64,000 nucleotides of DNA from an uncultured Clostridium sp. (GCA_947570695.1 CANOVB010000005.1:67487-131486); one strand, 5' to 3'. Shown: positions 6,750-61,815, counted from the first letter of the stretch. Translations and numbers: made by a program. The notes: a model not told the origin generated them from the sequence alone.

Positions 6750-6810
6750 GAATTATATAAAGTTTATATGAATTCATAGGAAAGTAGTGCTAAGGTGGCA
6801 CTGCTTTTTT

Positions 6811-7030
6811 ATTTAGTAGAAAAGAGCTATGCATCATACTAAATAAAAGCTTGCGCTAATTTTACACACAAATTTAATAATGCCAATATTAAAAATATTG
6901 ATATACTGATACTGTAATAGCTAAAACTTAAATAGTATTAGTAATTTTGTGTGAGCGAACATTTCTTAATTATGTGAAATGAGCTACAGATAAGTTATTG
7001 CAGAGGAAAGATGTGGACAATTTAGAAAAG
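6811..7030 (+). repeat. Intergenic repeat family IGR-1, copy R1, with an IGR-2 element nested in its module-C hairpin loop
   Basis: Hairpin atttagta..tactaaat, then aaaagcttgcgctaattt, then stem cacacaaatt(6864-6873)/aattttgtgtg(6943-6953) enclosing about 70 nt homologous to 21241-21312. It is followed by ctacagataagttattgcagag, which is shared with copy R2. Confidence 0.7.
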
Positions 7031-7212
7031 TTTTATCTTTTACATATAATATTTAGGCAATTTAGAAAAAAGTTTATTTTGCATATTAAGTATTTTTAGC
7101 TTTGTTTAAAAAATAAGTTTTATAGTTTTCTTGAAAAAACATATAAGTAATGATAACATAATAAAAAACAATTTATTTGTATTTTATTAAAAATAAAGAA
7201 ATGGTGGATATT

Positions 7213-8244: not shown

Positions 8245-8844
8245 ATGAGTGTTGTAATTACGATTGATGACATACGAGCTTATGCAGAAGTTGATTATAT
8301 TATTAATCATATGAATCAAAAATACATAGATAAAGTTCCTAAAAAAATTTTAGCTTTTTTTTCTGAGCTTAAAGATCCAAATTATTATGTAAAAGTTGAC
8401 CCTTATGTGCCACTTCAAAATCAAGGTTTAAAAAGGTATACTTTAGAAATAATTGCATTATTACATTTAAAATATTGGTGTGAAGATGAAGAAAGAAAAA
8501 AAGAATTATATGGTATAATGCTTCGTAATCAAGAAAAATTAGAAGAGCAAATGAGAGATAAATTTAGCGTAGATAAATTATTTGGAAATAATTCATCAGA
8601 TGAAAAGACTGAAGGACAAGAAAAAGAAGATTTTACGAAACCTAGAGTTGTTCAAAGATATAGCCAATATACAGAGCAAAATACTGATATACAAGATTTT
8701 ACTGATCATGTTGAAGAAACTAATATAGCACAATCAGAAAATAATTTAGTTTCAGAAACTAATATTTTAAAAGCAAAAAGTTTTTTTGAAAAAATAAAAG
8801 AAAAGATTTTATCAATTTTTAGCAAAAAAGAAAAAAGTAATTAA
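8245..8844 (+). CDS. Hypothetical protein
   Basis: ATG after GTGAGGGG. 199 aa with host-like codon usage and no recognisable motif. Confidence 0.55.
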   Translation: MSVVITIDDIRAYAEVDYIINHMNQKYIDKVPKKILAFFSELKDPNYYVKVDPYVPLQNQGLKRYTLEIIALLHLKYWCEDEERKKELYGIMLRNQEKLEEQMRDKFSVDKLFGNNSSDEKTEGQEKEDFTKPRVVQRYSQYTEQNTDIQDFTDHVEETNIAQSENNLVSETNILKAKSFFEKIKEKILSIFSKKEKSN

Positions 8845-8876
8845 ATAGTAAAAGAAGAACTTTTTAAAGTTCTTTT

Positions 8877-9072
8877 TTATATTATAGGAAATTGCTAAAA
8901 AATTCTAAAAGCTTCGCCAAAATTTGAGCACAATTTTACTATGTAAAATTGGTGCAAAAACATTTCTTAGATGTAGCAAATGAAATGAACTACAGATAAG
9001 TTATTGCAGAGAAAAGGAGAGGACATTTGCGTTTGTTTTTTGCAATTATCATAATGTACTCTTTTGTTTTTT
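8877..9072 (+). repeat. Intergenic repeat family IGR-1, copy R2
   Basis: Modules: tattataggaaattgc..., aaaagcttcgccaaaattt, hairpin gcacaattttac-tat-gtaaaattggtgc, ctacagataagttattgcagag, and long stem gagaggacatt...aatgtactcttttgtttt. Confidence 0.7.
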
Positions 9073-9150
9073 AGAAGAATATGCAATTAAATAAAATACA
9101 TTTTAAATATTATTTACTTTTATACTTTTGAGAAAAAATATGATAAAGTA

Positions 9151-13502: not shown

Positions 13503-13578
13503 TAAAAAAGTGAATTTAAATATTTCAAAATGAACCTAATTGTTAGACGAATCTGTTTAATAAGAAGGGTTCATTTTT

Positions 13579-13920
13579 TATATAATAAAAGATTGCTTTC
13601 AGATTTCTATTATATAAAGCTTTAAGTAAAAGTTGGGCACGATTTTATAAAATAAAATCAGAATATATAGTATTTTTAGATGTAAAAAATGCGCAGATAG
13701 GTTATTGAAGAAAAAAGATGAGGATATTTGCATTTTTACAATTATTATAGTGTCCGCTTTAATCCTATAATAGGAATTTGCTTAGTAATTTCTATTATAG
13801 AATAACTTTTCTAAAATTTGTACACAATTTTACTATGCAAAATTGACACGGAAACAAATACGAGGATATTGGCATTTAGTTTTTACTTTTGCAATTATTA
13901 TAATATTCACTTTTGTTCTT
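13579..13920 (+). repeat. Intergenic repeat family IGR-1, two tandem copies (R3a about 13579-13762, R3b about 13765-13920)
   Basis: Each copy begins with a tataata(g/a)ga...tctattata hairpin. R3b has acaattttac-tat-gcaaaattg and the long stem gaaacaaatacgaggatatt...aatattcacttttgttctt. Confidence 0.7.
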
Positions 13921-13996
13921 ATTTAAATAAAAATATGTTGATACTATGAAAACTGAATTTTAATAGTATAAAATGGAGAATATAAAAATTTATATT

Positions 13997-14821: not shown

Positions 14822-16099
14822 TTACGTGATATTCAATGTTTTGCCGTTGGTCAAGACCACTTGTGTTACGAGTCCCAATTTGTTGGTGTTGAAGCTCGCA
14901 GCGTCGTAACAGAACCGATAGCCGTCCTGAGGGCGGTCATAGATGGAACTGACGAACACCTGATTATCCCTGATATAGCAGAACTGCTTATCAGAGATGA
15001 AGCCGAAAGCGGTGATGTTTGACATGTACCACCCTGTATAGATTCTCGAGGCGATAATCGTCCCATTGAGATACAGGGAGCCGTCTGTAAGCATCAGAGT
15101 GTTGCTTTCAACTGTGCCCTTGGTGTACAAGGTAGCATAGGTGTCCTTTACGACAGCGTAGGTTTCCTTAGCAATCCACTTGTCGTTTGTGGAGGTGAAT
15201 TGCTTCAGGGTGTAAGTGGACTTCTCTGTAACGATTTCCGAGAGGAAACCATTGCTGTCAGTCCTGAAGGTCTTGAACTTGCTGTCCAGGGTAACCTTCT
15301 CCGCAGAGTACCAGTTTCCGAAAGTGAAACGGTACAGAGTACCATTGCTTTCGTAGAGGTACACGTTGTAGCTGGTATCGAATCCCAAGAATTTAGCACC
15401 CTTAAGGGTGTCGGACAGCCGGACGCCGTGAGTTGCATTGAGAACGCTCTTTTCGTCTTTGCTCACAATGATGGAAACCTTCAGGTTGCCAAACTCGTAA
15501 GCGTTACGAACGAACTCGCTCTCAGCGTTGGTGTACATTTCAACACGGCTGGTGTTATTTCCCGGCCTCTGAGGAACAGAAGGCTGAGAAGGCTGGCTGG
15601 GTTGAGACGGCTGGGAAGGCTGAGTCGGCGTACTGGGAACGGTGCTACCAGTAAGAGACTGGTTACCACTTGTGGTTTGCACCGAAGTTGCCAGATCGTC
15701 GCTGTTGTAAAGCAGACATGTTACGCCAGAAGCGTACCAAGTCGATTGCTTACCATCGCTTCCAACGCTAATCAGTGCACCAGCGCTGGTGACGTAGAAG
15801 AAATCGCCATTTGTGGCAAAGCCGTTGTAACGGGAACCGGAGCCAGCAGAGTTGCTCGCAAGAACGGTTCCATTGTTGTTATACACGGTGCTGCCGATGC
15901 TGTAAAAGCTTTTGCTGGGAACGTGGGCGTCCTGCCGGCGGTCATAGGTGTACAGCTTGTACCAGGTGCAGCCCGAGGAGGCGTCATCATAGGTAAAGCC
16001 GTACGGCGCTGTGTCGGCGGTCGTGGCGGCGAAAGCAGTGGGGCAGACCCCAAAGAAGCAGCACACAACCAGGAACAATGCGATCAAAGATTTTTTCAT
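14822..16099 (-). CDS. Secreted two-domain protein of unknown function with a (PSQ)n linker; GC-rich and foreign in composition
   Basis: Start is ATG 16099 (MKKSLIALFLVVCCFFGVCPTAFA|ATTAD, a signal peptide) after GAAAGG. The linker is PSTPTQPSQPSQPSQPSQPSVPQRPG. GC3-rich codons differ from all neighbouring genes. Confidence 0.8.
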   Translation of the reverse strand: MKKSLIALFLVVCCFFGVCPTAFAATTADTAPYGFTYDDASSGCTWYKLYTYDRRQDAHVPSKSFYSIGSTVYNNNGTVLASNSAGSGSRYNGFATNGDFFYVTSAGALISVGSDGKQSTWYASGVTCLLYNSDDLATSVQTTSGNQSLTGSTVPSTPTQPSQPSQPSQPSQPSVPQRPGNNTSRVEMYTNAESEFVRNAYEFGNLKVSIIVSKDEKSVLNATHGVRLSDTLKGAKFLGFDTSYNVYLYESNGTLYRFTFGNWYSAEKVTLDSKFKTFRTDSNGFLSEIVTEKSTYTLKQFTSTNDKWIAKETYAVVKDTYATLYTKGTVESNTLMLTDGSLYLNGTIIASRIYTGWYMSNITAFGFISDKQFCYIRDNQVFVSSIYDRPQDGYRFCYDAASFNTNKLGLVTQVVLTNGKTLNIT

Positions 16100-16247
16100 G
16101 TTAGTCAACCTTTCTGTGTTAAAATAAATCTTCAAAACCATGTTAGTTCAACAAATAGCCAAAAGGTCAGCTAAATAAAGTTGAACATCAAATCCCATAA
16201 AATCATTATAGCACAAACTAGTAAAAAAGGCAAATTTATGTAAAGCT

Positions 16248-16308: not shown

Positions 16309-16749
16309 TTAGAAATTCGCGTTTGGATCATCTGATAATTTGTACAGTAAATAGTCTGGGTCAACCTGAACGATATAGTGACTTCCACTTTTGGTGGTGA
16401 AAAGAAACCAGTCGGGTGCAATTTCTTCAAATGACTCTACTAGAGTCGTATTGAGATATTTTACACTGGTATCTGTAACACTAACAATAACGGAAGCTCT
16501 TTTACCCTTTGTAGGGTAACATAAGCAGACTCCAACTGTGGATTTATGTTTTAACTGAAGTTCAGTTATGTTAACAAACCATTCCACAGGGAAAAAATGC
16601 TCTACGTCGTCAATCTTGACAATGTACCGTTCAAAACCACTCATGTATACTGTCCACGAGGCCTCATATGCTTCTCCAACTTCTAAAAGCCTAAAATTGC
16701 ATTTTGGACCGCCGTGGATATCAATAGAACCATTGTACACGAGTTTCAC
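16309..16749 (-). CDS. Hypothetical 146-aa protein (island 1, intermediate GC)
   Basis: GTG start 7 nt after GAGGTG. It has its own terminator at 16248-16287. No motif recognised. Confidence 0.6.
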   Translation of the reverse strand: MKLVYNGSIDIHGGPKCNFRLLEVGEAYEASWTVYMSGFERYIVKIDDVEHFFPVEWFVNITELQLKHKSTVGVCLCYPTKGKRASVIVSVTDTSVKYLNTTLVESFEEIAPDWFLFTTKSGSHYIVQVDPDYLLYKLSDDPNANF

Positions 16750-18476: not shown

Positions 18477-18581
18477 GGGGACGTTTGTTAATGGACATTT
18501 TTGTCCGTTAGGGATAGATATTATTTATTTTTTAAACATCTGTAATAAAGAGGACAAAAATGTCCATTAACAAACGTCCCC
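18477..18581. repeat. Palindromic element PE-30: perfect 30-bp inverted repeats with a 45-bp spacer, inside the spoVAC-spoVAD intergenic region
   Basis: ggggacgtttgttaatggacatttttgtcc (18477-18506) and its exact reverse complement (18552-18581). The same arms recur at 47584-47647. Confidence 0.9.
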
Positions 18582-21522: not shown

Positions 21523-21648
21523 AAGTCAAACTATTGACATTTTTTGTAAAAAAAGATATAAATATACATATAAAAGTGAAATAAAATGTGATATTATATG
21601 TTTATGTAAAAAAATGTGTTTTTTTACTGTAAACAAAGGAGAAATGTA

Positions 21649-23262
21649 ATGTTAAGCTGTTTGGGAATTTATGTAGATAAAAACTTAATAAAATACGCAA
21701 AATTAAAAAAGAACAAAGATACATTAAAAGTTGAAGCTTTTAATGTTGAAGCTTTTGAGAATTTAGATGTTGCATTAAAAAAAGTTATAAATGAAACAAA
21801 CAGTTCAAGAATTCCAATAAGTATAAATATATCAGATGAGCTTTACAATTATTTTGAAGTATTCTCAGTTTTAGAAAAAAAGGATATTACAAAATCTTTA
21901 GATATAGAATTTGAAATGTTATGTGATTCAAGAGGATATGATAAAAGTTTGCTTGAATCAAGATATATTTTAATGGAAAACAAAAATAATTATGATAAAT
22001 ATAAATCATTATATATATCTGCAAATAAAAATGAAATAGATAGAAAATTGAGTATTCTTTCAGAGTATAAATTAGCTTCAATGACACCAGTTTCAACAAG
22101 TATAACAAATCTTATTGAACCAAAACAGGGCGAAAATATTGCAATTATTAATATAGAAAATGAAACAAAAATTACAACTATAATAGATGGTCAAATTAGT
22201 AGAGTTGATGTTTTAAATTCAGGAATGGATGAGATATCACAAAAAATAAATAAAATAGAATTATCATGGAAAAAAGCTTATGATGTGTATAAAAATATTA
22301 CAATTTATGCTCATGAAGTTTTAAGCTTAGAAGAAGATGAGAATGAATATATAGATATTGTAATGCCAGTTTTATATAAAATAGCAAATGAATCAAAAAA
22401 AATAATTAATACTTCTAAAGATAGAATAGACAAAGTTTATATAACAGGTACAGGTGCAACAATTAATAATGTTGATTTATATTTCCAAGAGTTTTTTAAA
22501 AAAGCAAAATGTGAAATATTAAAACCATTTTTTATTGATTCTAGTTCTTTAAAAGTACCAGCAAAAGAATATATAGAAGTAAATTCTGCTATTGCACTTG
22601 CCTTAGATGGATTAGGGTATGTAAATAAAGATTTAAATTTTGCACCAGTATCCAAATTTGATAATATAGATATTGAAACAATAATGAATTCTAAAGATAA
22701 TATAGATTTTAAAAATTGGAAAAATTCATTTAAATCACCTTTTGATATACAAGAAAAAATGATAGCAAGAGGAATTGCAGTATTTTTAATAGCAACTATT
22801 GGTTTTTCTGTAATGGGAACTAGTATTATGAATCAAATAAGTTTGCAAAAAGATGAAGCAAAAGAACAGCTAACTCAAACTATTGCTCAAATATCAACAA
22901 TGGAGAGTGAACTTTCAAGAATAGAAAGTCAGACCAATCAATATGCTACTTTGATTAATAGCGTAGATTCTTTAAATGAAGCAAATGCTAGTGTTCAAAA
23001 TAGTAGAATAATATCTAAAGGTGCTATACCAAATTTATTAACAAGAATAATGTTTATAATACCGCAACAAGTACAAGTTATTTCAATAGAAAATAAAGAA
23101 GGTAAACATATTATTATAGAGGCTGTATCAGAAAAATATGAACAATTAGGTTACTTTTCAGCTGCAATAAAAAATGATGGTATGCTTCAAAATATTCAAT
23201 CAACAAGTGCTACAAAAAGTGATTCACTTGTTCAAATTACAATAGAAGGAGATTTACCATGA
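21649..23262 (+). CDS. Type IV pilus assembly protein, PilM-PilN fusion
   Basis: N-terminal actin-like ATPase-fold region (LGIYVDKNLIKYAKL..., ITGTGATINN), then a TM segment (IAVFLIATIGFSVMG) and a coiled coil, as in clostridial PilMN. ATG 21649 follows AAAGGAGA. Confidence 0.7.
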   Translation: MLSCLGIYVDKNLIKYAKLKKNKDTLKVEAFNVEAFENLDVALKKVINETNSSRIPISINISDELYNYFEVFSVLEKKDITKSLDIEFEMLCDSRGYDKSLLESRYILMENKNNYDKYKSLYISANKNEIDRKLSILSEYKLASMTPVSTSITNLIEPKQGENIAIINIENETKITTIIDGQISRVDVLNSGMDEISQKINKIELSWKKAYDVYKNITIYAHEVLSLEEDENEYIDIVMPVLYKIANESKKIINTSKDRIDKVYITGTGATINNVDLYFQEFFKKAKCEILKPFFIDSSSLKVPAKEYIEVNSAIALALDGLGYVNKDLNFAPVSKFDNIDIETIMNSKDNIDFKNWKNSFKSPFDIQEKMIARGIAVFLIATIGFSVMGTSIMNQISLQKDEAKEQLTQTIAQISTMESELSRIESQTNQYATLINSVDSLNEANASVQNSRIISKGAIPNLLTRIMFIIPQQVQVISIENKEGKHIIIEAVSEKYEQLGYFSAAIKNDGMLQNIQSTSATKSDSLVQITIEGDLP

Positions 23263-23927
23263 GAAAATTAGTATTAATTGTTGTACTTATATTAACAGGA
23301 ATATTGTGTTTTTCAGTAATATTTTTTGGAATTAAAATTGGAAATTTTAAAATAAGTAGTTATAGTGAAATTGAAGCTGAAAATGGATTAAGAAAAACAT
23401 TATTAGTAGATTTAAATGAAAAAAATTCAGTTGAATTTACATCTAAACAATCTTCTTTAGACACAGCTGTTAACCAATATGAAACTAAAAAAGCAGAGTA
23501 TGAAGAATTAGTAGCAAAAGGTGAAATAGCAGATATATCAACATATAATTCAGTAGATTTATATGATTTAGATTTTCTATATACAGTAATAGGAAATTAT
23601 GCTACAGAAAAAGGTGTTGCTTTATCATTAGATATTTTTAGAAGTTCTAATGCAACATCAAAATCTGAAGAATATACAATTTGTGATTTGAATTTTACAA
23701 TAACAGGAGACTATATATCAATAACAGAATTTATTTCTAGTTTAGAAGATAATGATCAACTAAGTTTTGAGATAAGGGATTTTATGTTAGAAAAAGGTGG
23801 GGAAAACTTGCAAGCTACTTTTGTAGTAAAAGAAGTCCCTATTAATAGTAAAGACTTATTATCTGTGCCAACATCTGCACAGTCAACTTATGATGAAATG
23901 TTAAATTCAAATGGTTCAAATAATTAA
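23259..23927 (+). CDS. PilO-like pilus assembly protein (N-terminal TM plus coiled coil)
   Basis: Translationally coupled to pilMN by a 4-nt overlap. The call rests on TM plus coiled-coil architecture and gene context only. Confidence 0.5.
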   Translation: MRKLVLIVVLILTGILCFSVIFFGIKIGNFKISSYSEIEAENGLRKTLLVDLNEKNSVEFTSKQSSLDTAVNQYETKKAEYEELVAKGEIADISTYNSVDLYDLDFLYTVIGNYATEKGVALSLDIFRSSNATSKSEEYTICDLNFTITGDYISITEFISSLEDNDQLSFEIRDFMLEKGGENLQATFVVKEVPINSKDLLSVPTSAQSTYDEMLNSNGSNN

Positions 23928-23960
23928 AATTAGATTTGATTTAGAAGGAATGGTAAGAAA

Positions 23961-24563
23961 ATGGGTAGTAAAATAGCAAAAGAGATATTTATAATTGTGT
24001 TACTTCTTATAGTAGTACTTTTTACGATAGGAATTTTATTTTATGAATTTATACCTTCAAAAAATGAAAATATAAGTTCTTCAAAATATACACCAACAGA
24101 TAAGGTTGTTGCAACACTTGCCGAAATACAAGAAAATGGCGGCATCGATTATTCTAAAGGTGATAATACAAATTCATTATTAAAATCTTATAGTATAAAT
24201 AAAAGTGATTTAAGTGGATATCAATCTGAAAATTATTATGAGAGTGGAAAAAAAGATCCTTTTGCAGAATATTCAGAATCAGTTGCAGAAGAAGTAATAA
24301 AAGAACCTAAAGTAAATACAGTAGATAATAATAAAGTAAAAGATAAAAATACAGTTAGTAATACGGTAACAAAAAAAGAACCAAATACTACTAATACAGT
24401 AACAAATACTACCCCAAATAATACTACAAATACTTCTTCAAGCAGTTCAGAATCATTAACAGAATATTTAAAAAATAAAAATAAAAATACAACAAAAGAT
24501 CAAAATAAAACAGACAATAATTCATCTACAGGAATATATTTTGAAAAGAAAGATTCAAAATAA
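23961..24563 (+). CDS. Hypothetical membrane-anchored protein with a T/N-rich tail (pilus cluster)
   Basis: N-terminal TM IFIIVLLLIVVLFTIGILFY. Low-complexity NTTNT C-terminus. Confidence 0.5.
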   Translation: MGSKIAKEIFIIVLLLIVVLFTIGILFYEFIPSKNENISSSKYTPTDKVVATLAEIQENGGIDYSKGDNTNSLLKSYSINKSDLSGYQSENYYESGKKDPFAEYSESVAEEVIKEPKVNTVDNNKVKDKNTVSNTVTKKEPNTTNTVTNTTPNNTTNTSSSSSESLTEYLKNKNKNTTKDQNKTDNNSSTGIYFEKKDSK

Positions 24564-24581
24564 AATTTAAGGAGAATAGTT

Positions 24582-24752
24582 ATGAAATCACAAAAAGGAA
24601 TGGGCAGAGTACAATTTTTAGTAGCAGTAGTGGCATTAATATTAATAGCTGGAGCAGCGACTTATACACTTATAGATAGTTATAATTCTTCAAAAGAAAA
24701 CAGAAAAGTTATACCAAATACAAATACCAGTAATACCAACACATTAAATTAG
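24582..24752 (+). CDS. 56-aa membrane peptide (pilus cluster)
   Basis: ATG 24582 lies 7 nt after AAGGAGA. Sequence MKSQKGMGRVQFLVAVVALILIAGAATYTLIDSY... It is below the ORF-track size cut-off. Confidence 0.45.
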   Translation: MKSQKGMGRVQFLVAVVALILIAGAATYTLIDSYNSSKENRKVIPNTNTSNTNTLN

Positions 24753-24830
24753 ATTTTATATTTAAAACTTATAGGCATGTACATTTGAATATTAATGTAT
24801 ATGCCTATTTATGTAATTAGGTTAAAAAGT

Positions 24831-25856
24831 ATGGAAGAAAAAAATAAGTTTGTTAAAAATAATTTTATATCATTTGATGTTATTTTTTCAATTTTTGTAA
24901 TTTTATCAATAATAGCGATTATTACAATAGTATGTACTAAAATAAATTTGGAACTTCAAATAGTGAGGAAAAAAGCACGAGCTATAATAATAATTACAAA
25001 CATAGTAGAAAATATAAATTCTAGGAATTATACAGAGTTTGAAAAATATATTCAAGAAATTTCTATGATAGGAATTTCTAAAAAGATGGAAACTAATTTT
25101 CAAAATATAATTGTTGATGGAAATGAATGTAATGAAACATTTCTAGGGACACAGATTCCTAATGGCTATGTGCTTGAACTTGAAATTGATGGTTCAAAAG
25201 ATATATTTTCATTAGAAAAACAAATAAAAATAAATATAAAATTTTTAGTAGGTTCTTCAGAATATAATCAGAAAATTACTACAAGTATTGAGAGCGAGAA
25301 AATAAGTGAATGTAATAGCCCAATTATTTCAGATGAGTATTTTGAGCCTTTAGGGATAAGTACATATTATTATAATATTATACCTATTAAATATTCGAAT
25401 GAGGAAAAAGCTTATGTAAAAACAACAATAGGGGATAAAGAGTGGTATAACTATTCCGCAAAAGAATGGGCAAGAGTTTTAGTGTTTTTGAAAGATGGAG
25501 AAGATATAGAGGGAAGATTTATTAATTCTAATGGAGTGGTAAAAAATATAGCAGAATTTGATGGATATAGTATTGACGTAAATAACTATATGTATGTATG
25601 GATACCTAATTTTTCAATAAAGGAAAATACTTCTTATTTTAGATATAAAACAGGAAAAAATGTTATAAAAATGGATTTATCTCATGCTAATGATAAAATA
25701 TTAAATATAAATACAGTAGGAGAAAATGTTGAAGATGTCTCAAAAACTTGTAGTTTTGAAGGAATATATGGAGTTTGGAAAAAGCTTGGAGATGAAACAG
25801 ACGAGTATTATAGTTATTTTAATCTTACAAAATATGCTCCTATAAATATGCATTAA
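24831..25856 (+). CDS. Hypothetical protein with a pilin-like N-terminal hydrophobic helix (possible large minor pilin)
   Basis: KNN-FISFDVIFSIFVILSIIAIIT has an acidic residue at +5 but no Gly at -1. The hairpin ataggcat..atgcctat (24772-24812) covers the alternative ATG at 24795, so ATG 24831 is preferred. Confidence 0.4.
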   Translation: MEEKNKFVKNNFISFDVIFSIFVILSIIAIITIVCTKINLELQIVRKKARAIIIITNIVENINSRNYTEFEKYIQEISMIGISKKMETNFQNIIVDGNECNETFLGTQIPNGYVLELEIDGSKDIFSLEKQIKINIKFLVGSSEYNQKITTSIESEKISECNSPIISDEYFEPLGISTYYYNIIPIKYSNEEKAYVKTTIGDKEWYNYSAKEWARVLVFLKDGEDIEGRFINSNGVVKNIAEFDGYSIDVNNYMYVWIPNFSIKENTSYFRYKTGKNVIKMDLSHANDKILNINTVGENVEDVSKTCSFEGIYGVWKKLGDETDEYYSYFNLTKYAPINMH

Positions 25857-27189: not shown

Positions 27190-28095
27190 ATGGATATAGG
27201 AATTGATTTAGGTGGAAGTCATATAGGAGTAGGAATAATAGAAGATGGAAATTTGATTTCTACAGTAGATAAGTTTTTTTCTAAAGAAGATAGAGAAAAT
27301 ATAGAAGTTGCAATATTAAAAAATATAGAAGAATTAATTAATAGGATATCATTTGAAAATAATTTATCTTTAGATAAGATAAATAAAATAGGAGTGGCAT
27401 CACCAGGAACGATTACAAATGGACACATAATTTCTTGGAATTTGAACTTAAAAAATTTTGATTTACAATCTAAGCTAATAGAAAAATATAATAAACCTGT
27501 TAAAATAAGAAATGATGGAAAATGTGCAGCATTAGCAGAAAAAAAGTATGGATCAATGAAAAATTATAATGATTGTGTATTTATAAATATTGGAACCGGA
27601 ATAGGTGGAGCGGCATTTATTGGTGGAAAACTTTTAGAACCTAAAAGATATTCTGGTTTTGAATTTGGACATATAACACTTGTAAAAGATGGAATACAAT
27701 GTACTTGTGGAAAAAAAGGATGTTTTGAGAGATATGCATCAATAAAAGCTTTAAAAGACAAAATAACTAATACATTAAATATAGATGGAACAGACATTTC
27801 AGGACAATATTTAAGAGAAGAGATAATGGTAAAATATCATAAACAATTAGAAAAGGATATTAACGAATTTATTGATTATTTAAGAATTGGTGTATGTAAT
27901 TTAATAGATATATTTGAACCAGAAGTAGTTTGTTTTGGAGGTAGTTTTTCGTATTATGAAGGACATCCAGTACTAAATAATTTAATTGAAGAAATAGATA
28001 AAAAAGGCTCAAGGTTTAATGAAGGAAAAACTGAAATTGTAACAGCAAATTTAAAAAATGATGCAGGGATAATCGGTTCAGTAATTGATTTTTAG
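27190..28095 (+). CDS. glk: ROK-family glucokinase
   Basis: MDIGIDLGGSHIGVG..., NDGKCAALAE, and the zinc motif GHITLVKDGIQCTCGKKGCFE. ATG 27190 follows AAAAGGAG. Confidence 0.88.
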   Translation: MDIGIDLGGSHIGVGIIEDGNLISTVDKFFSKEDRENIEVAILKNIEELINRISFENNLSLDKINKIGVASPGTITNGHIISWNLNLKNFDLQSKLIEKYNKPVKIRNDGKCAALAEKKYGSMKNYNDCVFINIGTGIGGAAFIGGKLLEPKRYSGFEFGHITLVKDGIQCTCGKKGCFERYASIKALKDKITNTLNIDGTDISGQYLREEIMVKYHKQLEKDINEFIDYLRIGVCNLIDIFEPEVVCFGGSFSYYEGHPVLNNLIEEIDKKGSRFNEGKTEIVTANLKNDAGIIGSVIDF

Positions 28096-28115
28096 TGCTT
28101 AAGTTAGCTTAAAGG

Positions 28116-28144
28116 TTGACATAATTTGAACAGAATGGTATAAT
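28116..28144 (+). promoter_or_regulatory. Near-perfect consensus sigma-A promoter of the GC-rich cassette
   Basis: TTGACA (28116-28121), 17-nt spacer containing TG at 28136-28137, TATAAT (28139-28144). Confidence 0.75.
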
Positions 28145-28180
28145 AAATATTGACCCAAAAACTTTTAGGAGGAAATTGTG

Positions 28181-28528
28181 ATGAACGGTAGCAACAATCG
28201 CACTATGGAGTTGACGGCAATGAACGAGCAAGGCGTTTTCACCCTGATTTTCCGGGATGACGAGCTGCTGAGAGAGTTCGAGAACATGGTTTCCATGTTC
28301 AACCGGAAGCAGGAAGAGCTGATCGTCACCGAGATCGGCGAAAGCAACGGCAGAATCTTTGAGGTCAAGCGCGTCGAGGGACGCCCCACTTGTTGGGAGC
28401 TGGCTCTGCACAAGTATATGAGCCTGTCCAACACCACAAAGACCAACAAGATTACCGGAAAGAAGTACGAGCCTGTACTGTTTACGCCGCTGCGCTTCGT
28501 GAGTCAGACAGAAGAAGCGGCCTGCTAA
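28181..28528 (+). CDS. Hypothetical 115-aa protein (GC-rich cassette, island 2)
   Basis: AGGAGG (28167-28172), 8 nt, then ATG 28181. About 52% GC in sampled lines. GC3-rich codons. No motif recognised. Confidence 0.7.
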   Translation: MNGSNNRTMELTAMNEQGVFTLIFRDDELLREFENMVSMFNRKQEELIVTEIGESNGRIFEVKRVEGRPTCWELALHKYMSLSNTTKTNKITGKKYEPVLFTPLRFVSQTEEAAC

Positions 28529-28587
28529 TCACAAACCATTGCTGGAGCCAAACAAAAAAGGAGTTTTTAAGGAGATGGCACCAGCAG

Positions 28588-28614
28588 CCCCGCCACTATG
28601 GCGGGGTTTTATTT
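28588..28614 (+). terminator. Rho-independent terminator of the GC-rich cassette
   Basis: ccccgcca-cta-tggcgggg followed by ttttattt. Confidence 0.85.
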
Positions 28615-28615
28615 A

Positions 28616-28870
28616 TATAATAGGAAATTCCTATAGAATTCCTATTATATAAAGCCTTCGGCAACATTTCACAGAAAAATTGCTATGCAATTTTTTGCGG
28701 GCGAACAAAGACGAGCCACTTAAATACACTAAAATGTTTGAGAATTTTAAAAGTGGCTCTTTTGTTCTTTAATAGAAAAGTGCTCTGTACTTTTATTAGA
28801 TAAAGCTTTCATCGACTTTATACAGAAAAACGATAAAGCAATTTTTTATAATATAAAGAAGTTGCCAAAA
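28616..28870 (+). repeat. Intergenic repeat family IGR-1, copy R5a (28616-28770) plus truncated R5b (28771-28870)
   Basis: taataggaaattc..gaattcctatta hairpin, ataaagccttcggcaacattt, gaaaaattgc-tat-gcaatttttt hairpin, and long stem gaacaaagacgagccactt...aagtggctcttttgttc. The second unit begins aatagaaaagtgctctgtacttttatt gataaagctttc. Confidence 0.75.
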
Positions 28871-28924
28871 TTTACAGGAATCCCCAAAATAATACATGAA
28901 ATATAAAAAAATAGAAAAAATATG

Positions 28925-28980
28925 TTGACAATTATTTTTTTTATAACTATAATGAATATATGAACAAATATTCATATATT
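28925..28980 (+). promoter_or_regulatory. Sigma-A promoter overlapping an ArsR/SmtB-type 12-2-12 operator
   Basis: TTGACA (28925-28930), 17-nt spacer, TATAAT (28948-28953). AATATATGAACAAATATTCATATATT (28955-28980) matches the SmtB/CzrA operator pattern aATAxxTGAACAxxTATTCAxxTATt. Confidence 0.75.
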
Positions 28981-31527: not shown

Positions 31528-32037
31528 TTACAGCAGACTGAGAAACTCAGGGGGACAAAACAGAGGTCTGTAGTCCGTGAAGTCCTTAATCAGCTGTTTC
31601 AGGTTTTCTTGACTGATATTATCAGCCACATAGGCAACCAAAGGCTTGAGTAGATGCTTGCCGGGGGCGTTCTGAACAAGAGCGATTCCGTAAACATCTT
31701 TTTTTACAGTCAGAATCACATCTTTGGAGGTCTTTTCCTTGTAATCACGGATTGCTTTCCAAAACTCATCAAAAGAGGTAACATTGGAAGCTTTGGTGCT
31801 GAAGGAAAGAGACCAAGCGATTTTCTGACCGCGGCTTTTCGGCATTTCAGCCCTGATGACAGAGGGAGCTTTGTTCATTCCGTTGTGCGAAATGTAGAAA
31901 CATTCCCCAATGCTTGCTTGGCAGTTAGTGGATGGGTATCCACATAAAGATGTCCGCAACTCATGACCATCAAATGAAGCTCTAACAGATTCAGAGATTG
32001 TGATGGACATAGGAGATTTCCACAAAAAAACCTGCAT
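31528..32037 (-). CDS. Hypothetical 169-aa protein (island 3, GC-rich)
   Basis: ATG 32037 lies 5 nt after GGAAAGG. About 52% GC in sampled lines. No motif recognised. Confidence 0.65.
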   Translation of the reverse strand: MQVFLWKSPMSITISESVRASFDGHELRTSLCGYPSTNCQASIGECFYISHNGMNKAPSVIRAEMPKSRGQKIAWSLSFSTKASNVTSFDEFWKAIRDYKEKTSKDVILTVKKDVYGIALVQNAPGKHLLKPLVAYVADNISQENLKQLIKDFTDYRPLFCPPEFLSLL

Positions 32038-32336: not shown

Positions 32337-32747
32337 ATGAAAAGACGGAGAAAAAAGCCTAGTCCTATGAGTAAAATTTTGGTATTCGTGGCAGGGGTAC
32401 TTTTGGGAGTATCAGCTACACTGAGCTATTTTACATTTTCTGAGTACCAAAATAGTCCCCCTAAACCCGCCAACCCAAGAATGAACATAGTTGCACACGG
32501 CTCATGGATTCATTCTAATGATGGTGGCAGTTATACTATTTCAGCTTTAGGTTATGGAAAACTGTACTCTAATGTCGCGTTCAGTAATGAGGTTTCAGCA
32601 ACTGAGCACCCTGTCGAGGTTCGTAGTGAGGGATATACGATACAAATCGACATTGTAGGATGGTATAAAAAAACAGTAACTATGACTGCTGGAGAGTCAC
32701 TGCTAATAGGTGTACCTGAGGCTTATCTTTATGTAATTGTTGTCTAA
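32337..32747 (+). CDS. Hypothetical 136-aa membrane-anchored protein (island 3)
   Basis: AGGAGGAG RBS. MKRRRKKPSPMSKILVFVAGVLLGVSATLSYFTF (basic N-terminus plus one TM), followed by a beta-rich domain. Confidence 0.65.
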   Translation: MKRRRKKPSPMSKILVFVAGVLLGVSATLSYFTFSEYQNSPPKPANPRMNIVAHGSWIHSNDGGSYTISALGYGKLYSNVAFSNEVSATEHPVEVRSEGYTIQIDIVGWYKKTVTMTAGESLLIGVPEAYLYVIVV

Positions 32748-37195: not shown

Positions 37196-37435
37196 CATAG
37201 TAAAAAAGGCGTTTGATTAAGAATTAAGTAGTAAATAAACTTTTTAAAAGAGAGCTTATGGTTGGTGAGAATAAGTAAAAGAATTTACGAAATCTACTCT
37301 TAAGAGTTTCTAGAAAACTAGACCGAGTTATTGCAGGTTATAGCAATTTGAAAGATGGATTAGATTAATCTAAAAAAGGTGGTACCGCGATATATTCGCC
37401 CTTATGTATTTTTTACATGGGGGCGTTTTTGTTTA
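37196..37435 (+). promoter_or_regulatory. T-box leader, probable Ser (UCU) specifier
   Basis: T-box sequence aaaaaaGGTGGTACCGCG (37372-37389). Terminator cgcccttatgta-ttttt-tacatgggggcg plus T5 (37397-37430). Stem-I AGAGA and GGTGAGA elements. The specifier-loop candidate is GAAA-TCT-A (TCT at 37293-37295). serS is the third gene downstream. Confidence 0.85.
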
Positions 37436-43599: not shown

Positions 43600-43788
43600 A
43601 GAATAGGGTGTAAGCTAACTTAATATGATTACTGGTTAAAAATCTGTTATAGTATTGCTACTATTTTTTTTCTTAACCTATGGTAGTAATTACCACTAGA
43701 GCATCCGCCGAATCTTTCGATAACTCTAGACCTCGTCAACTATTTTTAAAATTTATATGTATAAAAATTTTAAAGTAGTCCTGGCGCT
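43600..43788 (-). ncRNA. glmS ribozyme
   Basis: The minus strand reads A|GCGCCAGGACU...GACGAGGUCUAGAGUUAUCGAAAGAUUCGGCGGAUGCUCUAG. This matches the conserved core AGCGCCAGAACU...GACGAGG...GUUAUCGAA..UUCGGCGGAUGCC directly upstream of glmS. The 3' limit is approximate. Confidence 0.9.
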
Positions 43789-44087
43789 AACCTTTGTTTT
43801 AAATAATATACTCCTTTCTAAACTTTTGCTTACAAACTAGAAATTAAAAATTTTTTCTAGTAACCTATTTCTTTTATATAATATTCGAATTTTTTTAAAA
43901 TGTCAATATTATTTTTTGGATGTTAATGAATGTATATATATAAATGCATTCTAAATATTGAGGCTCTAAGAATTAAAATTTAAATAATTCTGGTAAAACA
44001 TTGCTAAAAGGAAATAAATATTCTTTACATGAAAAAGTAATTATAATATAATAGCTATGTATTAAAAATAGATTGGAATTGGTATGT

Positions 44088-46722: not shown

Positions 46723-47586
46723 ATGGAAATAGCAAGTAATTGGAAAGATTATGAAATTTTAGATATGTCTGATGGTGAAAAGCTTGAAAAATGGAATAAT
46801 ATTATTTTAATAAGGCCAGATCCTCAGATAATTTGGAAAGAAAAAACTTTCCCTGAAAAATGGAAAAGTGCTGATGCTAGATATAGCAGAAGTAATACTG
46901 GTGGTGGAGCTTGGCAATATCATAAGAATTTGCCAAAAGCTTGGCAAGTTCATTATAAAGATTTAACTTTTAATATAAAACCAATGGGGTTTAAACACAC
47001 AGGTCTTTTCCCAGAACAGGCAGTTAATTGGGATTGGATGATAAATAAAATAAAAACAGATGGTAGAAAAGATATAAAAGTATTAAATCTTTTTGCATAT
47101 ACAGGAGGAGCAACAGTAGCTTGTAGCTATGCTGGTGCTTCTGTTTGTCATGTTGATAGTTCAAAAGGTATGGTATCATGGGCAAAAGAAAATATTGCAT
47201 CATCAGGACTTAGTGACAGACCAGTTAGATTTATAATTGATGATGTTACAAAGTTTGTTAATAGAGAAATAAGAAGAGGAAATAAATATGATGCAATAAT
47301 AATGGATCCGCCTTCTTATGGAAGAGGAAAAAATGGAGAAGTATGGCAATTTGAAAACAATATATCTGATTTAGTAGAATTATGTGCAAATGTTTTATCA
47401 AATGAACCATTATTCTTTTTGATAAATTCTTATACAACAGGGATTTCATCAAAAGTTTTAGAAAATATTTTAAGTTTAAAATTAAAAATGAAAAACGGTA
47501 AATTATCATCAGGAGAAATTGGTTTACCTATGAAAAATTCAAAATTAGTGCTTCCATGTGGAATATATGGAAGATGGGAGAGATGA
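46723..47586 (+). CDS. Class I SAM-dependent (RlmI/RlmK-like) methyltransferase
   Basis: VLNLFAYTGGATVACSYAG (motif I) and IIMDPPSYGRGKNGEVW (the DPPxY-type motif IV). Confidence 0.8.
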   Translation: MEIASNWKDYEILDMSDGEKLEKWNNIILIRPDPQIIWKEKTFPEKWKSADARYSRSNTGGGAWQYHKNLPKAWQVHYKDLTFNIKPMGFKHTGLFPEQAVNWDWMINKIKTDGRKDIKVLNLFAYTGGATVACSYAGASVCHVDSSKGMVSWAKENIASSGLSDRPVRFIIDDVTKFVNREIRRGNKYDAIIMDPPSYGRGKNGEVWQFENNISDLVELCANVLSNEPLFFLINSYTTGISSKVLENILSLKLKMKNGKLSSGEIGLPMKNSKLVLPCGIYGRWER

Positions 47587-47647
47587 CCCTTAGGGGACGT
47601 TTGTTAATGGACATTTTTGTCCATTAACAAACGTCCCCTAAGGGTCA
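47584..47647. repeat. Palindromic element PE-30, compact copy (64-nt near-perfect palindrome overlapping the methyltransferase stop codon)
   Basis: tgacccttaggggacgtttgttaatggac-atttttg-tccattaacaaacgtcccctaagggtca. The arm sequence is identical to 18477-18502. Confidence 0.9.
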
Positions 47648-57511: not shown

Positions 57512-57560
57512 AAAAGAAAATTAAAAGATTACTAAACAAAGGAATTGGGAAGATGAGAAT

Positions 57561-57597
57561 AAAAAAGATATTTACATTTTTGTAAATATCTTTTTTA
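57561..57597 (+). terminator. clpB terminator
   Basis: aagatatttac-attttt-gtaaatatctt followed by a T-run. Confidence 0.8.
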
Positions 57598-57600
57598 TTT

Positions 57601-57808
57601 AATAGGGAAGTGCTTTGCACTTCCCTATTAAATAAAGCTTTCAGCAACTTTGTGCAGAAAAAATTCAAAGAAATTTTTCGCACATCGAACAAAGACGAGG
57701 GCATTTGCAATAAATTTTGTCTTTTTCAATTTTCATAATGCCTTCTTTTGTTCTTATATGACATTTGCTTTTATATTTTTCAATTATAATAATGTCCTTT
57801 TGAGTTCT
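57601..57808 (+). repeat. Intergenic repeat family IGR-1, copy R6 (best-preserved full copy plus an extra module D)
   Basis: Module A: aatagggaagtgc-ttt-gcacttccctatt (57601-57629). Module B: aaataaagctttcagcaactttg. Module C: gtgcagaaaaaattc-aaa-gaaatttttcgcac (57652-57683). Module D: gaacaaagacgagggcatt...aatgccttcttttgttc (57687-57754). Module D': gacatttgc...aatgtccttttgagttct (to 57808). Confidence 0.8.
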
Positions 57809-57825
57809 AATTTAAACATATTTAA

Positions 57826-61132: not shown

Positions 61133-61663
61133 ATGGCAGATAGTCCAGAAGTAATAGAGGCAAGAGAGAAAAGGGATGATAGAGATTTTTTCTTAAGTAG
61201 AGTTGAAGAAATGCCAAATTTAATTGAGTGGGCAAATGATCAAATACGTGATGATAAAGAAGTTATTATGAAGGCAATTAAATCTGATGGTGGGGCATTG
61301 GAGTTTGCAAGTAATAGGCTTAAAGATGATAAAGAAGTTTTATTAGAAGCAGTTAGCCAGTCAGGATGGACTTGCTGTTATGCTAGTGAAAAGTTGAAGA
61401 CTGATAAAGATGTTCTTTTAACAGCTTCAAAAAATGATGGACAAGTTTTATATTTTGCAAGCAAAGAACTTAGAGATGATAAAGATGTAGTACTTGCTGC
61501 AGTAGAAAATAAACCTATTATTTTAAAATATGCAAGTTTTAGATTAAGAAATGATAAAGAAGTAGCTATAAAAGCTGTTAGTAAAGCTAAGAAAAAAGTT
61601 TGGGATTATATTTCTCCTGAACTTAGAGAAGACGAAGAGATAAAGAAATTGTTAGAAGAATAG
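61133..61663 (+). CDS. DUF4116 repeat protein
   Basis: Five copies of a roughly 30-aa repeat D(D/K)KEV(I/L/V)..A(I/V)...G.(A/V)L.(F/Y)AS..L(K/R)(D/N)D. ATG 61133 follows AAAGGAG. Confidence 0.75.
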   Translation: MADSPEVIEAREKRDDRDFFLSRVEEMPNLIEWANDQIRDDKEVIMKAIKSDGGALEFASNRLKDDKEVLLEAVSQSGWTCCYASEKLKTDKDVLLTASKNDGQVLYFASKELRDDKDVVLAAVENKPIILKYASFRLRNDKEVAIKAVSKAKKKVWDYISPELREDEEIKKLLEE

Positions 61664-61690
61664 AATAAAAGAGGATATTATAATAATTGT

Positions 61691-61815
61691 AAAAACAAAA
61701 CTAAATGATAATGATGTCATCTTTGTTGTGTGTGCTGATTTTATTTTATAAAATTGTATACAAATTTTGATGAAGCTTTTTTATAGAAATTGCAGAGCAA
61801 TTTACTATAATATAA
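61691..61815 (-). repeat. Intergenic repeat family IGR-1, copy R7 (inverted orientation, short form)
   Basis: The reverse complement reads tattatagtaaattgc-tct-gcaatttctataa aaaagcttcatcaaaatttgtatacaattttataaaataaaatcag...aacaaagatgac...ttttgttttt; compare R3a. Confidence 0.65.

What the first reader, a model, noticed from the sequence alone, without database searches (positions are those of the whole stretch)
28096..28614. GC-rich island 2: a self-contained, moron-like expression cassette with consensus promoter, AGGAGG RBS, 115-aa orphan ORF and strong terminator
Seen in sequence:
- Immediately after the glk stop there is a textbook promoter: TTGACA, 17 nt with TG, then TATAAT at 28116-28144.
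- AGGAGG follows, with 8-nt spacing to the ATG at 28181.
- The 348-nt ORF is about 52% GC (31/60 in line 28261-28320). Three overlapping shadow ORFs are a symptom of its foreign composition.
- It ends with the terminator ccccgcca/tggcgggg plus a U-run.
- The whole unit is about 520 bp and abuts a copy of the IGR-1 repeat.

Established knowledge: genes bracketed by their own promoter and terminator, with deviant GC content, are the definition of phage morons. Here there is no prophage context.

Inference: this is a single-gene cargo built for constitutive high expression. Candidate roles are a small anti-phage, anti-defence or immunity-type protein. Its function cannot be read from the sequence (MNGSNNRTMELTAMNEQGVFTLIFRDDELLREFENMVSMFNRKQEELIVTEIGESNGRIFEVKRVEGRPTCWELALHKYMSL...).
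Basis: partly seen in the sequence, partly recalled or inferred. Interest (0 to 1): 0.7.

Follow-up and report, generated by a model that had tools for sequence, protein, structure and literature searches.

The report
Hypervariable GC-rich small-protein gene cassette
This is a real, strongly signalled stand-alone gene for a small protein of unknown function; it is not recently imported cargo but a fixture of one clade of AT-rich gut Clostridia, where it keeps a strangely GC-rich codon usage and diverges about three times faster than its neighbours.

Summary
The "moron-like foreign cargo" reading does not hold.

- **Conserved position.** Divergent homologues sit directly downstream of the same T2SSF-ROK (glk) operon in at least 23 loci from Candidatus Scatovivens-like MAGs and metagenomes, with the same promoter, SD and terminator layout.
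- **Clade-restricted.** The family has 42 clusters among 1.84 billion representatives, no phage, plasmid or viral homologue, and no Pfam, NCBIfam, PHROG, PADLOC or Rfam match.
- **Coding.** dN/dS is 0.1-0.27. AF2 (pLDDT 85) gives a generic ferredoxin-like fold with a disordered tail ending in [LVIM]-[AV]-[AVG], which resembles an ssrA degron.

Three things are unusual:
- GC3 is 0.74 against 0.10 in neighbours, and is held in situ across species. CGG occurs 0 times in 14,155 ordinary codons but in 22 of 24 family genes.
- Divergence is confined to the transcribed unit, with dS about 3x that of glk and flanks and promoter conserved.
- ORF types are incongruent with the glk tree.

Function is unknown. 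My best guess is a highly expressed, short-lived regulator or adaptor. Interest is moderate.

The parts
27190..28095 (+). ROK-family glucokinase-like gene (glk). It is the last gene of the T2SSF/pilus-like operon and the conserved left anchor of the cassette.
   Evidence: Pfam ROK, E = 4.8e-48. T2SSF lies upstream. The same gene precedes the family ORF in every informative locus.
28116..28144 (+). Sigma-70 consensus promoter TTGACA-17-TATAAT with an extended -10 (TGg). The transcription start predicted near 28151 is inferred.
   Evidence: 12/12 match. It is one of only 2 perfect matches in 64 kb, where 0.11 are expected. It is conserved in 23 of 24 family loci and is 97% identical between L006 and L007 while the ORF is 82%.
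28151..28180 (+). Short 5' UTR carrying the Shine-Dalgarno AGGAGG (28167-28172), 8 nt before the ATG.
   Evidence: Sequence. An SD-like motif is present in 23 of 24 family members.
28181..28528 (+). 115-aa ORF, a member of a clade-restricted orphan family. The predicted protein has an N-terminal helix, a beta-alpha-beta-beta-alpha-beta ferredoxin-like domain, and a disordered C-terminal tail ending in ...EEAAC.
28176..28182 (+). UUGUGAU, overlapping the start codon. It is complementary to AUCACAA at 28528-28534, which overlaps the stop codon.
   Evidence: RNAduplex gives dG -14.5 and z -2.1. All 6 type-A orthologues show this start/stop-region pairing with different sequences, for example L001 AAGUGAU/AUCACUU. 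It also appears in the MFE and centroid structures. It is not seen in the other subtypes, and ensemble accessibility of the initiation region is not consistently low.
28540..28586 (+). 3' UTR hairpin (UGCUGGAGCCA...UGGCACCAGCA) immediately upstream of the terminator.
   Evidence: Folding the 3' UTR gives z = -4.6. The hairpin is retained with compensatory changes in L009, L011 and L008.
28586..28615 (+). Intrinsic terminator (CCCCGCCAC-UAU-GGCGGGG plus a U-run).
   Evidence: It is conserved, with the variant CCCACC/GGUGGG in L011.
28609..28900 (.). Two units of a dispersed intergenic repeat, containing the palindrome ATAATAGGAA...TTCCTATTAT. It is adjacent to the transcription unit, not part of it.
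   Evidence: Repeat families D4, D5 and D12. Alignment of 6 window copies. The palindrome has 2 exact-pattern hits. It is present after the terminator in L009 but absent in L011 and L092.

Best explanation
**Shown.** 28116-28615 is an autonomous, monocistronic, very strongly signalled transcription unit. It encodes a small cytoplasmic protein of a previously undescribed family that is restricted to Candidatus Scatovivens-like, roughly 25%-GC gut Clostridia.
- It is a resident gene of this clade at a fixed position, directly downstream of the T2SSF-ROK operon. It is not recently imported cargo.
- It is under purifying selection.
- The whole transcribed unit (5' UTR, ORF and 3' UTR) is a divergence island. 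It evolves about 3x faster than its flanks, exists as several very different allelic types that do not follow the glk tree, and keeps a GC3-rich codon usage in genomes whose ordinary genes have GC3 near 0.1.

**Inferred function (my estimate about 0.3).** The protein is made at a high rate and is short-lived. Its disordered tail ends in a conserved nonpolar tripeptide, [LVIM]-[AV]-[AVG]-COOH, which resembles the ssrA LAA signal read by ClpXP. Its level would then be set by proteolysis, and it would act as a small regulator, adaptor or decoy through its ferredoxin-like domain.

**Inferred reason for the GC-rich coding sequence (about 0.3-0.4).** The GC-rich synonymous sites and 3' hairpins give a compact, more stably folded mRNA in an organism whose other mRNAs are AU-rich.
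For: **Anatomy.**

**Synteny and family.**
- tblastn finds homologues right after glk in relatives.
- Context is the same whether arsR-cadA or RNase J follows.
- Promoter and SD are retained in 23 of 24 loci.
- There are only 28 and 42 database clusters.

**Coding.** dN/dS is 0.09-0.27, similar to glk at 0.07-0.24.

**Divergence island.**
- In three close genome pairs, flanking genes are 91-96% identical and the L006-L007 promoter is 97% identical. The intergenic region downstream of the terminator is 94-98% identical in two of the pairs (53% in L009-L011, where L009 carries a repeat insertion). The ORF is 74-82% identical and the UTRs 77-90%.
- dS is 0.89-0.97 against 0.26-0.30 for glk.
- Edges are sharp in distant pairs.
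- ORF type is incongruent with the glk tree.

**GC3 held in situ.**
- GC3 is 0.74 against 0.10 in the neighbours; orthologues range 0.26-0.74.
- Synonymous S<->W differences are balanced between orthologues.
- All 24 family loci whose DNA I read are AT-rich contexts.

**mRNA folding.**
- Coding-sequence MFE falls below synonymous-codon shuffles in 19 of 19 orthologues, with mean z = -1.88. The mean is -0.39 for 22 control segments (Mann-Whitney p = 6e-4).
- The 3' UTR hairpin and terminator are conserved with compensatory changes.

**Protein.**
- AF2 gives pLDDT 84.7 with a disordered tail at 103-115.
- About 50 of 60 members end in [LVIM]-[AV]-[AVG].
- The last three residues, LAA, are the critical part of the ssrA tag, and variants such as LVA and AAV are used to tune degradation (PMC9382460).
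- Hydrophobic C-termini are depleted in bacteria and lower protein levels through degradation (PMC7246954).
Against: - There is no experimental or transcriptomic evidence for expression, half-life or ClpXP dependence.
- The window's own tail (...EEAAC) fits the motif less well than ...RKLAA or ...RRLAV in other subtypes.
- No partner gene co-occurs apart from the ROK gene.
- RNAalifold finds no conserved global structure in the coding region; the covariation term is +5.0.
- Accessibility of the translation initiation region is not consistently altered.
- The excess-folding signal is modest, and the sequences are phylogenetically related.
- Some close relatives lack the cassette entirely, so it is dispensable.
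Confidence: 0.5

Rival explanations
1. The locus is under diversifying or frequency-dependent selection, in line with the first reader's anti-phage, anti-defence or immunity idea. The cassette would encode an immunity- or defence-type protein whose alternative allelic types (idiomorph-like) are swapped between lineages by recombination in the conserved flanks.
For: - There are very different ORF types at one conserved locus with sharp edges.
- ORF type is incongruent with the glk tree: L021 glk groups with L018 and L027 at 84-87%, but its ORF is 58-67% identical to L006 and L086 and only 29-32% to L018 and L027.
- Presence varies among relatives.
- The family is small, orphan and lineage-specific.
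Against: - dN/dS is 0.1-0.27, no higher than for glk, so the fast evolution reflects a higher overall rate rather than excess amino-acid change.
- The UTRs diverge as fast as the ORF.
- There is no match in PADLOC or PHROGs.
- There is no toxin or effector neighbour.
- Diversity within the species is essentially zero.
Confidence: 0.2
2. The transcript itself is the functional product, or a second product, as in a dual-function RNA. GC enrichment would then reflect selection for RNA structure, for example the 5'-3' closure and the 3' hairpins.
For: - The whole transcript folds with z = -3.6 and the 3' UTR with z = -4.6.
- Coding sequences are more folded than synonymous shuffles in 19 of 19 orthologues.
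- Start-region/stop-region pairing with compensatory changes occurs in all 6 type-A members.
- In AT-rich genomes, GC islands with a strong promoter and a terminator are typically RNA genes (own knowledge).
Against: - There is no Rfam hit even at E <= 10 and no tmRNA or tRNA.
- The ORF, the SD and purifying selection on the protein are conserved throughout the family.
- There is no conserved coding-region structure across the type-A members I aligned.
- The 5'-3' pairing is confined to one subtype.
Confidence: 0.1
3. The locus is a recombination or mutation hotspot with no adaptive meaning for composition. Frequent gene conversion (GC-biased) or transcription-associated mutagenesis at the strongest promoter in the region would raise both divergence and GC3.
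For: - The divergence island coincides with the transcribed unit, with dS and dN both about 3x glk at an unchanged dN/dS.
- G and C are raised equally at third positions (0.38 and 0.37), and GC skew falls to about 0 in the island.
- Recombination-associated GC3 increase is documented in bacteria (PMC4450053).
Against: - The size of the effect (GC3 0.10 to 0.74) is far beyond what I recall for bacterial biased gene conversion (own knowledge).
- The neighbouring arsR gene has an equally perfect promoter but GC3 of 0.10.
- GC enrichment is concentrated at third codon positions (0.74, against 0.48 and 0.35 at positions 1 and 2), and the rise in GC begins at about the start codon.
- There are no SNPs in the cassette within the species.
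Confidence: 0.12
4. One reading: a recently acquired moron-type cargo gene from a phage, plasmid or GC-rich donor.
For: - The gene has its own promoter and terminator, and its codon usage is foreign-looking.
- One low-coverage contig (L004) carries a 100%-identical 280-nt core next to a DUF3970-like ORF and a ParA-like N-terminus.
Against: - The gene is syntenic in at least 23 loci of many species.
- There is no phage, plasmid or viral homologue.
- There are only 42 clusters worldwide, and the 24 loci whose DNA I read are all AT-rich.
- The 72%-identical orthologue, with dS of 1.4, still has GC3 of 0.71.
- L004 (2x coverage, 554 bp) and L005 look like chimeric contigs with junctions at short shared stretches.
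Confidence: 0.04

Closest known systems
Phage morons (for example lambda bor/lom-type genes)
   Same: A single gene bracketed by its own promoter and terminator, with composition unlike its surroundings.
   Different: It is not in a prophage. It sits at a conserved chromosomal position across species, has no phage homologues, and its deviant composition is maintained over long divergence rather than being a relic of recent transfer.
Small proteins driven by near-consensus constitutive promoters in Firmicutes, such as Bacillus subtilis Veg (own knowledge)
   Same: A roughly 100-aa cytoplasmic protein, monocistronic, with a near-perfect sigma-A promoter and a strong SD.
   Different: There is no sequence or specific fold relationship. 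Veg is broadly conserved and has ordinary codon usage, whereas this family is clade-restricted, hyperdivergent and GC3-rich.
Natural ClpXP substrates with ssrA-like C-terminal signals (C-motif 1; for example B. subtilis Spx, which ends in LAN; own knowledge)
   Same: A disordered C-terminal tail ending in a nonpolar tripeptide resembling LAA, LAV or VAA.
   Different: The resemblance rests only on sequence. Degradation was not tested, and the window's own tail (AAC) is a weaker match.
Polymorphic 'idiomorph'-type loci such as the comQXP/pherotype or agr specificity regions (own knowledge)
   Same: Conserved flanks and promoter surround a sharply bounded, highly divergent segment whose types do not follow the species tree.
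   Different: There is no peptide-pheromone, kinase or processing gene here, and dN/dS is not elevated.
Rare-codon-gated genes (Streptomyces bldA/TTA system; own knowledge)
   Same: The gene uses codons that the rest of the genome virtually never uses (CGG, CGC, CTG).
   Different: Here most synonymous sites are shifted, not a single codon. The tRNA repertoire is unknown, and no regulatory tRNA has been identified.

Membership tests
Phage moron | Lies within a prophage or phage genome between conserved phage genes. | tested here: not met
   The flanks are the T2SSF-ROK operon and arsR-cadA. There is no phage DNA or protein match.
Phage moron | Has its own promoter and terminator. | tested here: met
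Phage moron | Deviant composition together with sporadic, recent-acquisition distribution. | tested here: not met
   Composition is deviant. However, the gene is syntenic across many species, and its GC3 is at steady state.
Known protein families (Pfam, NCBIfam, PHROGs, PADLOC, PDB sequences) | A significant profile match. | tested here: not met
   No match reaches any curated cut-off for the window protein or for 46 family members.
Ferredoxin-like (beta-alpha-beta-beta-alpha-beta) fold | beta1-alpha1-beta2-beta3-alpha2-beta4 topology forming an alpha/beta sandwich. | tested here: met
ssrA-like ClpXP degron (C-motif 1) | An accessible C-terminus ending in a nonpolar tripeptide like LAA. | tested here: met
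   Over 60 members, the last residue is A, V or G in 49, position -2 is A or V in 46, and position -3 is L, V, I or M in 36. The tail is disordered in the model. The window protein itself ends in AAC.
ssrA-like ClpXP degron (C-motif 1) | ClpXP-dependent turnover that is abolished by mutating the tail. | not testable with these tools
   This needs pulse-chase or degradation assays.
Type II toxin-antitoxin or immunity pair | An adjacent, co-transcribed partner gene. | tested here: not met
   The unit is monocistronic, bounded by its promoter and terminator. There is no conserved neighbour other than ROK.
Rfam non-coding RNA, tmRNA | A covariance-model or ARAGORN match. | tested here: not met

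The most novel reading that the evidence does not exclude
The family would be a deliberately "mis-coded" host gene. It is kept in GC-rich codons that the genome otherwise never uses: CGG occurs 0 times in 14,155 ordinary codons but in 22 of 24 family genes, and is conserved at the same Arg position within subtypes. CTG is used about 40x more often.

Under this reading, translation of the gene or survival of its mRNA is gated in one of two ways. It could depend on the supply of rare tRNAs, including phage-borne tRNAs. Or its resistance to AU-directed RNases could let it be expressed when bulk AU-rich mRNAs are being destroyed. Combined with a built-in degron, that would make a codon- or composition-gated sensor switch.
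Probability: 0.1. Interest if true: 0.8.

Novelty: new variant of a known kind. Interest (0 to 1): 0.5.

Why it matters
Taken as a gene, this is one more lineage-specific orphan. Taken as an evolutionary object, it is a clean natural example of a resident gene that maintains a codon usage opposite to its genome. GC3 is 0.74 against 0.10, and it uses codons otherwise absent, across species whose synonymous sites are saturated. The transcription unit alone also evolves about three times faster than its flanks.

This challenges the routine practice of reading a compositional island with its own promoter and terminator as recent horizontal transfer. It also offers a tractable case for asking what can hold GC3 up against strong AT mutation pressure: mRNA folding or stability, rare-codon gating, or biased conversion. 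If the C-terminal tail is a true degron, the cassette is also a compact "strong promoter plus unstable protein" module from uncultured gut Clostridia.

Tried and rejected
- **Known RNA gene.** Rfam at gathering thresholds and at E <= 10, and ARAGORN, found nothing.
- **Phage or plasmid origin.** blastn against phages and plasmids and two viral-contig scans were empty.
- **GTDB scan with the single protein.** It found nothing because its patterns were too specific. Scanning with glk instead recovered the relatives.
- **Locus scan with the 46-member alignment.** It was too divergent to use. The type-A sub-alignment added one locus.
- **Misassembly.** Rejected on the basis of 247 index blocks and identical independent assemblies.
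- **Paralogues in the window.** None.
- **Charge-based ideas (DNA mimic or nucleic-acid binder).** pI ranges from 4.8 to 9.3 with no trend.
- **Conserved global mRNA structure in the coding region.** Not supported.
- **Family-wide sequestration of the ribosome-binding site.** Not supported.
- **tRNA genes in the fetched loci.** Uninformative; only tRNA-Leu UAG and UAA turned up, in a distant relative.
- **Contigs L004 and L005.** They join the ORF to unrelated GC-rich DNA. I treat them as probable chimeras (2x coverage, short, junctions at short shared stretches), but I could not prove it.

Full report
**1. The observation**

The window is about 25% GC. The ROK-family glucokinase-like ORF ends at 28095. 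Twenty nucleotides later lies TTGACA-17-TATAAT (28116-28144), a 12/12 match with a TGn extended -10. Only two perfect matches to this pattern occur in the 64 kb, where 0.11 are expected; the other is the arsR promoter at 28925.

AGGAGG (28167-28172) lies 8 nt before the ATG at 28181. The ORF 28181-28528 encodes 115 aa at 53% GC. A 10-bp, 7-GC hairpin with a T-run at 28586-28608 closes the unit. GC in 300-nt windows rises from 0.20-0.28 to 0.51-0.53.

The three shadow ORFs are present, as is the abutting dispersed repeat.

It is not an assembly artefact. The identical protein is indexed in 247 blocks and 131 contigs. Four independent assemblies from ENA, NCBI and JGI carry the same 8.3-kb context with 0-5 SNPs, none in the cassette.

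**2. What it is: a resident, clade-restricted gene rather than cargo**

A direct protein search found only three relatives. One (P0002, 72% identical) lies on contigs that show the same glk end, promoter, SD and ORF layout in another AT-rich organism.

Fetching the glk neighbourhood from GTDB species representatives showed that the organism belongs with Candidatus Scatovivens-like uncultured Clostridia; the best glk identity is 81%. tblastn and ORF inspection then revealed divergent homologues (17-50% identity) directly downstream of glk in many of these genomes. Each has a TTGAC-N17-TATAAT promoter, an SD, a locally GC-elevated ORF of 95-165 aa, and a GC-rich terminator.

More distant members follow the same T2SSF-ROK operon even where the downstream gene is RNase J instead of arsR-cadA. 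Short metagenomic contigs show the same architecture. Of 24 loci, 23 keep the promoter and 23 keep an SD. Some relatives lack the cassette.

An exhaustive HMMER profile search of 1.84 billion representatives found only 42 clusters. The word-indexed search of 5.8 billion found 28. The following gave nothing:
- phage or plasmid DNA;
- viral contigs;
- BFVD structures;
- Pfam, NCBIfam, PHROGs, PADLOC and PDB sequences;
- Rfam or ARAGORN;
- paralogues in the window.

**3. It codes for a protein**

Between orthologue pairs dN/dS is 0.09-0.27, the same range as for the adjacent glk (0.07-0.24).

The conserved core is the W-x-[IL]-[LM]-x-[HR]-[KR]-[YF] helix, with W72 nearly invariant, plus the G-T-Y hairpin and the EKYYPV strand.

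The rest of the tail is unconserved, but about 50 of 60 members end in [LVIM]-[AV]-[AVG] (...RKLAA...RRLAV...FRMAG; the window has ...EEAAC). The last three residues, LAA, are the critical part of the ssrA tag, and variants such as LVA and AAV tune degradation (PMC9382460). Hydrophobic C-termini are generally depleted in bacteria and lower protein levels through degradation (PMC7246954). I therefore infer a C-terminal degron. This was not tested.

**4. The unusual parts**

*(a) Codon usage.* GC at codon positions 1/2/3 is 0.48/0.35/0.74 in the ORF. In glk, arsR, cadA and the T2SSF gene, GC3 is 0.10-0.13. The median GC3 of the window's large ORFs is 0.10.
- The ORF uses CTG for 9 of 10 Leu codons, CGC or CGG for 6 of 8 Arg, and AAG for 7 of 7 Lys.
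- In 29 ordinary ORFs (14,155 codons), CGG occurs 0 times, CGC once and CTG 9 times.
- In 24 family genes (2,942 codons) there are about 30 CGN and 25 CTG codons per 1000. Twenty-two of the 24 contain CGG, sometimes at the same Arg position within a subtype.

All orthologues have raised GC3 (0.26-0.74). Every family locus whose DNA I read (24 loci) sits in an AT-rich context. The window and L001 genes are saturated at synonymous sites (dS 1.44), yet both have GC3 above 0.7. Synonymous S->W and W->S differences are balanced in most pairs. The composition is therefore maintained in situ rather than being a decaying trace of transfer. One lineage (L086, GC3 0.26) does appear to have decayed.

*(b) Divergence island.* Three independent close genome pairs were compared.

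| Region | Nucleotide identity |
|---|---|
| Flanking genes | 91-96% |
| Promoter (L006-L007) | 97% |
| Intergenic region downstream of the terminator | 94-98% in two pairs; 53% in L009-L011, where L009 carries a repeat insertion |
| UTRs | 77-90% |
| ORF | 74-82% |

dS is 0.89-0.97 against 0.26-0.30 for glk. In more distant pairs the unit aligns at chance level (30-45%), between flanks that are 75-90% identical, with sharp edges just after the -10 and just before the next promoter.

ORF types do not follow the glk tree. L021 groups with L018, L027 and L088 by glk (84-87%) but carries the ORF type of L006 and L086 (58-67%, against 29-32% to L018 and L027). Because dN/dS is not raised, the fast evolution reflects a higher overall substitution or replacement rate, not an excess of amino-acid change.

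*(c) mRNA folding.*
- The predicted transcript folds better than dinucleotide shuffles (z = -3.6), and the 3' UTR has z = -4.6.
- All 19 orthologous coding sequences tested fold better than their own synonymous-codon shuffles. The mean z is -1.88, against -0.39 for 22 control segments of neighbouring genes (p = 6e-4).
- The 3' UTR hairpin and the terminator are kept with compensatory changes.
- In the window's subtype, the start-codon region pairs with the stop-codon region, using different sequences in different species: UUGUGAU/AUCACAA here and AAGUGAU/AUCACUU in L001. This holds for 6 of 6 members, with z from -1.9 to -4.1.
- No conserved global coding-region structure emerges, and ribosome-binding-site accessibility is not consistently altered.

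**5. Interpretation**

*Shown.* This is an autonomous, strongly signalled gene of a new, clade-restricted small-protein family. It is fixed at one chromosomal position, under purifying selection, with an anomalous composition that is actively maintained and a divergence hotspot that coincides with the transcription unit.

*Inferred (about 0.3 each).* The protein is abundant but short-lived through an ssrA-like tail, and it acts as a regulator, adaptor or decoy. The GC-rich synonymous sites serve mRNA compaction or stability.

*Rivals.*
- An immunity- or defence-type locus with swapped allelic types (0.2). The incongruence and the sharp edges favour it; the ordinary dN/dS and the lack of any defence hit count against it.
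- A mutation or gene-conversion hotspot with no adaptive meaning (0.12; compare PMC4450053). Against it, arsR has an equally perfect promoter but a normal GC3.
- An RNA-level function (0.1).
- A recently acquired moron (0.04).

The "foreign cargo" inference is not.

**6. Comparison with known systems, and novelty**

The cassette resembles a moron only in having its own promoter and terminator and a deviant composition. It fails the prophage-context and sporadic-distribution criteria. It resembles Veg-type small proteins in its expression signals, natural ClpXP substrates in its tail, and pherotype-like idiomorphic loci in its divergence pattern. It is not a member of any of these.

I rate it a new variant of a known kind: a lineage-specific hypervariable small-protein locus. 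What is uncommon is its in-situ-maintained "foreign" codon usage. Interest is 0.5. The puzzle is well defined and testable, but function is unknown and a dull explanation, such as a hotspot, remains possible.

**7. Loose ends**

Contigs L004 and L005 join parts of this exact ORF to unrelated GC-rich DNA: a DUF3970-like ORF with a ParA-like N-terminus in one, and an unidentified gene in the other. They are short and low-coverage and are probably chimeric, but this is unproven.

Four other orphan ORFs in the window are also GC3-rich. At least two of them fold far better than their synonymous shuffles, so the phenomenon may extend beyond this gene.

Noticed in passing
window 14822-16141(-), 16309-16749(-), 31528-32037(-), 32337-32747(+): Four more orphan ORFs have raised GC3 (0.64, 0.36, 0.48, 0.31, against a genome median of 0.10) and no Pfam hits. 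One is a 439-aa protein with a signal-peptide-like N-terminus and a PSQ repeat. Their coding sequences also fold better than synonymous shuffles, with z down to -4.5. The 439-aa protein has a 41%-identical homologue in L013. The two ORFs after cadA were not found in relatives within the fetched flanks.
   Followed up: partly
window 28609-28900; also about 6780-7060, 8830-9080, 13570-13930, 57560-57830, 61640-61870: A dispersed intergenic repeat family (units of about 150-200 nt) has internal palindromes, for example ATAATAGGAA...TTCCTATTAT and GAACAAAGACGAG...CTCTTTTGTTC. It is MITE- or REP-like. It is present after the cassette terminator here and in L009, but absent in L011 and L092.
   Followed up: partly
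window, 29 ordinary ORFs (14,155 codons): CGG is never used, CGC is used once, and CTC and CCC four times each. CGG may be poorly decoded or effectively unassigned in this organism. No tRNA genes lie in the window.
   Followed up: partly
window 18477-18581 and 47584-47647: The same 30-nt sequence (GGGGACGTTTGTTAATGGACATTTTTGTCC) forms perfect inverted repeats at two distant loci, with spacers of 45 nt and 4 nt. Its nature is unknown; it could be a terminator, an operator or a mobile-element end.
   Followed up: no
L004 1-554; L005 1-1021: Two short public contigs fuse parts of this exact ORF to unrelated GC-rich DNA. L004 has a DUF3970-like ORF, then a ParA-like start (MCRVIAVANQKG) fused in frame to a 100%-identical 280-nt core. 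L005 has the glk end, the promoter and the first 55 codons, followed by foreign sequence. They are probably assembly chimeras, but this is not proven.
   Followed up: partly
window 28925-28953: The arsR-cadA operon also has a perfect TTGACA-17-TATAAT promoter, the only other one in the window. The same promoter, followed by AGTATTAATGAGATTTATATA, recurs in relatives.
   Followed up: no
window 21616-25856: Five consecutive ORFs upstream of the T2SSF gene (548, 222, 200, 56 and 353 aa) have no significant Pfam match. With T2SSF and ROK they form a conserved operon in the clade, possibly a very divergent pilus or pseudopilus system.
   Followed up: no
window 37203-37406(+), 43624-43799(-): There is a T-box leader (93.8 bits) and a glmS ribozyme (77 bits), consistent with a Firmicutes-type genome.
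   Followed up: no
L090 5405-5860; L021 and L027 about 4930-5400: In one sub-clade an extra conserved gene of about 151 aa, with no Pfam hit, sits between ROK and the cassette promoter.
   Followed up: no
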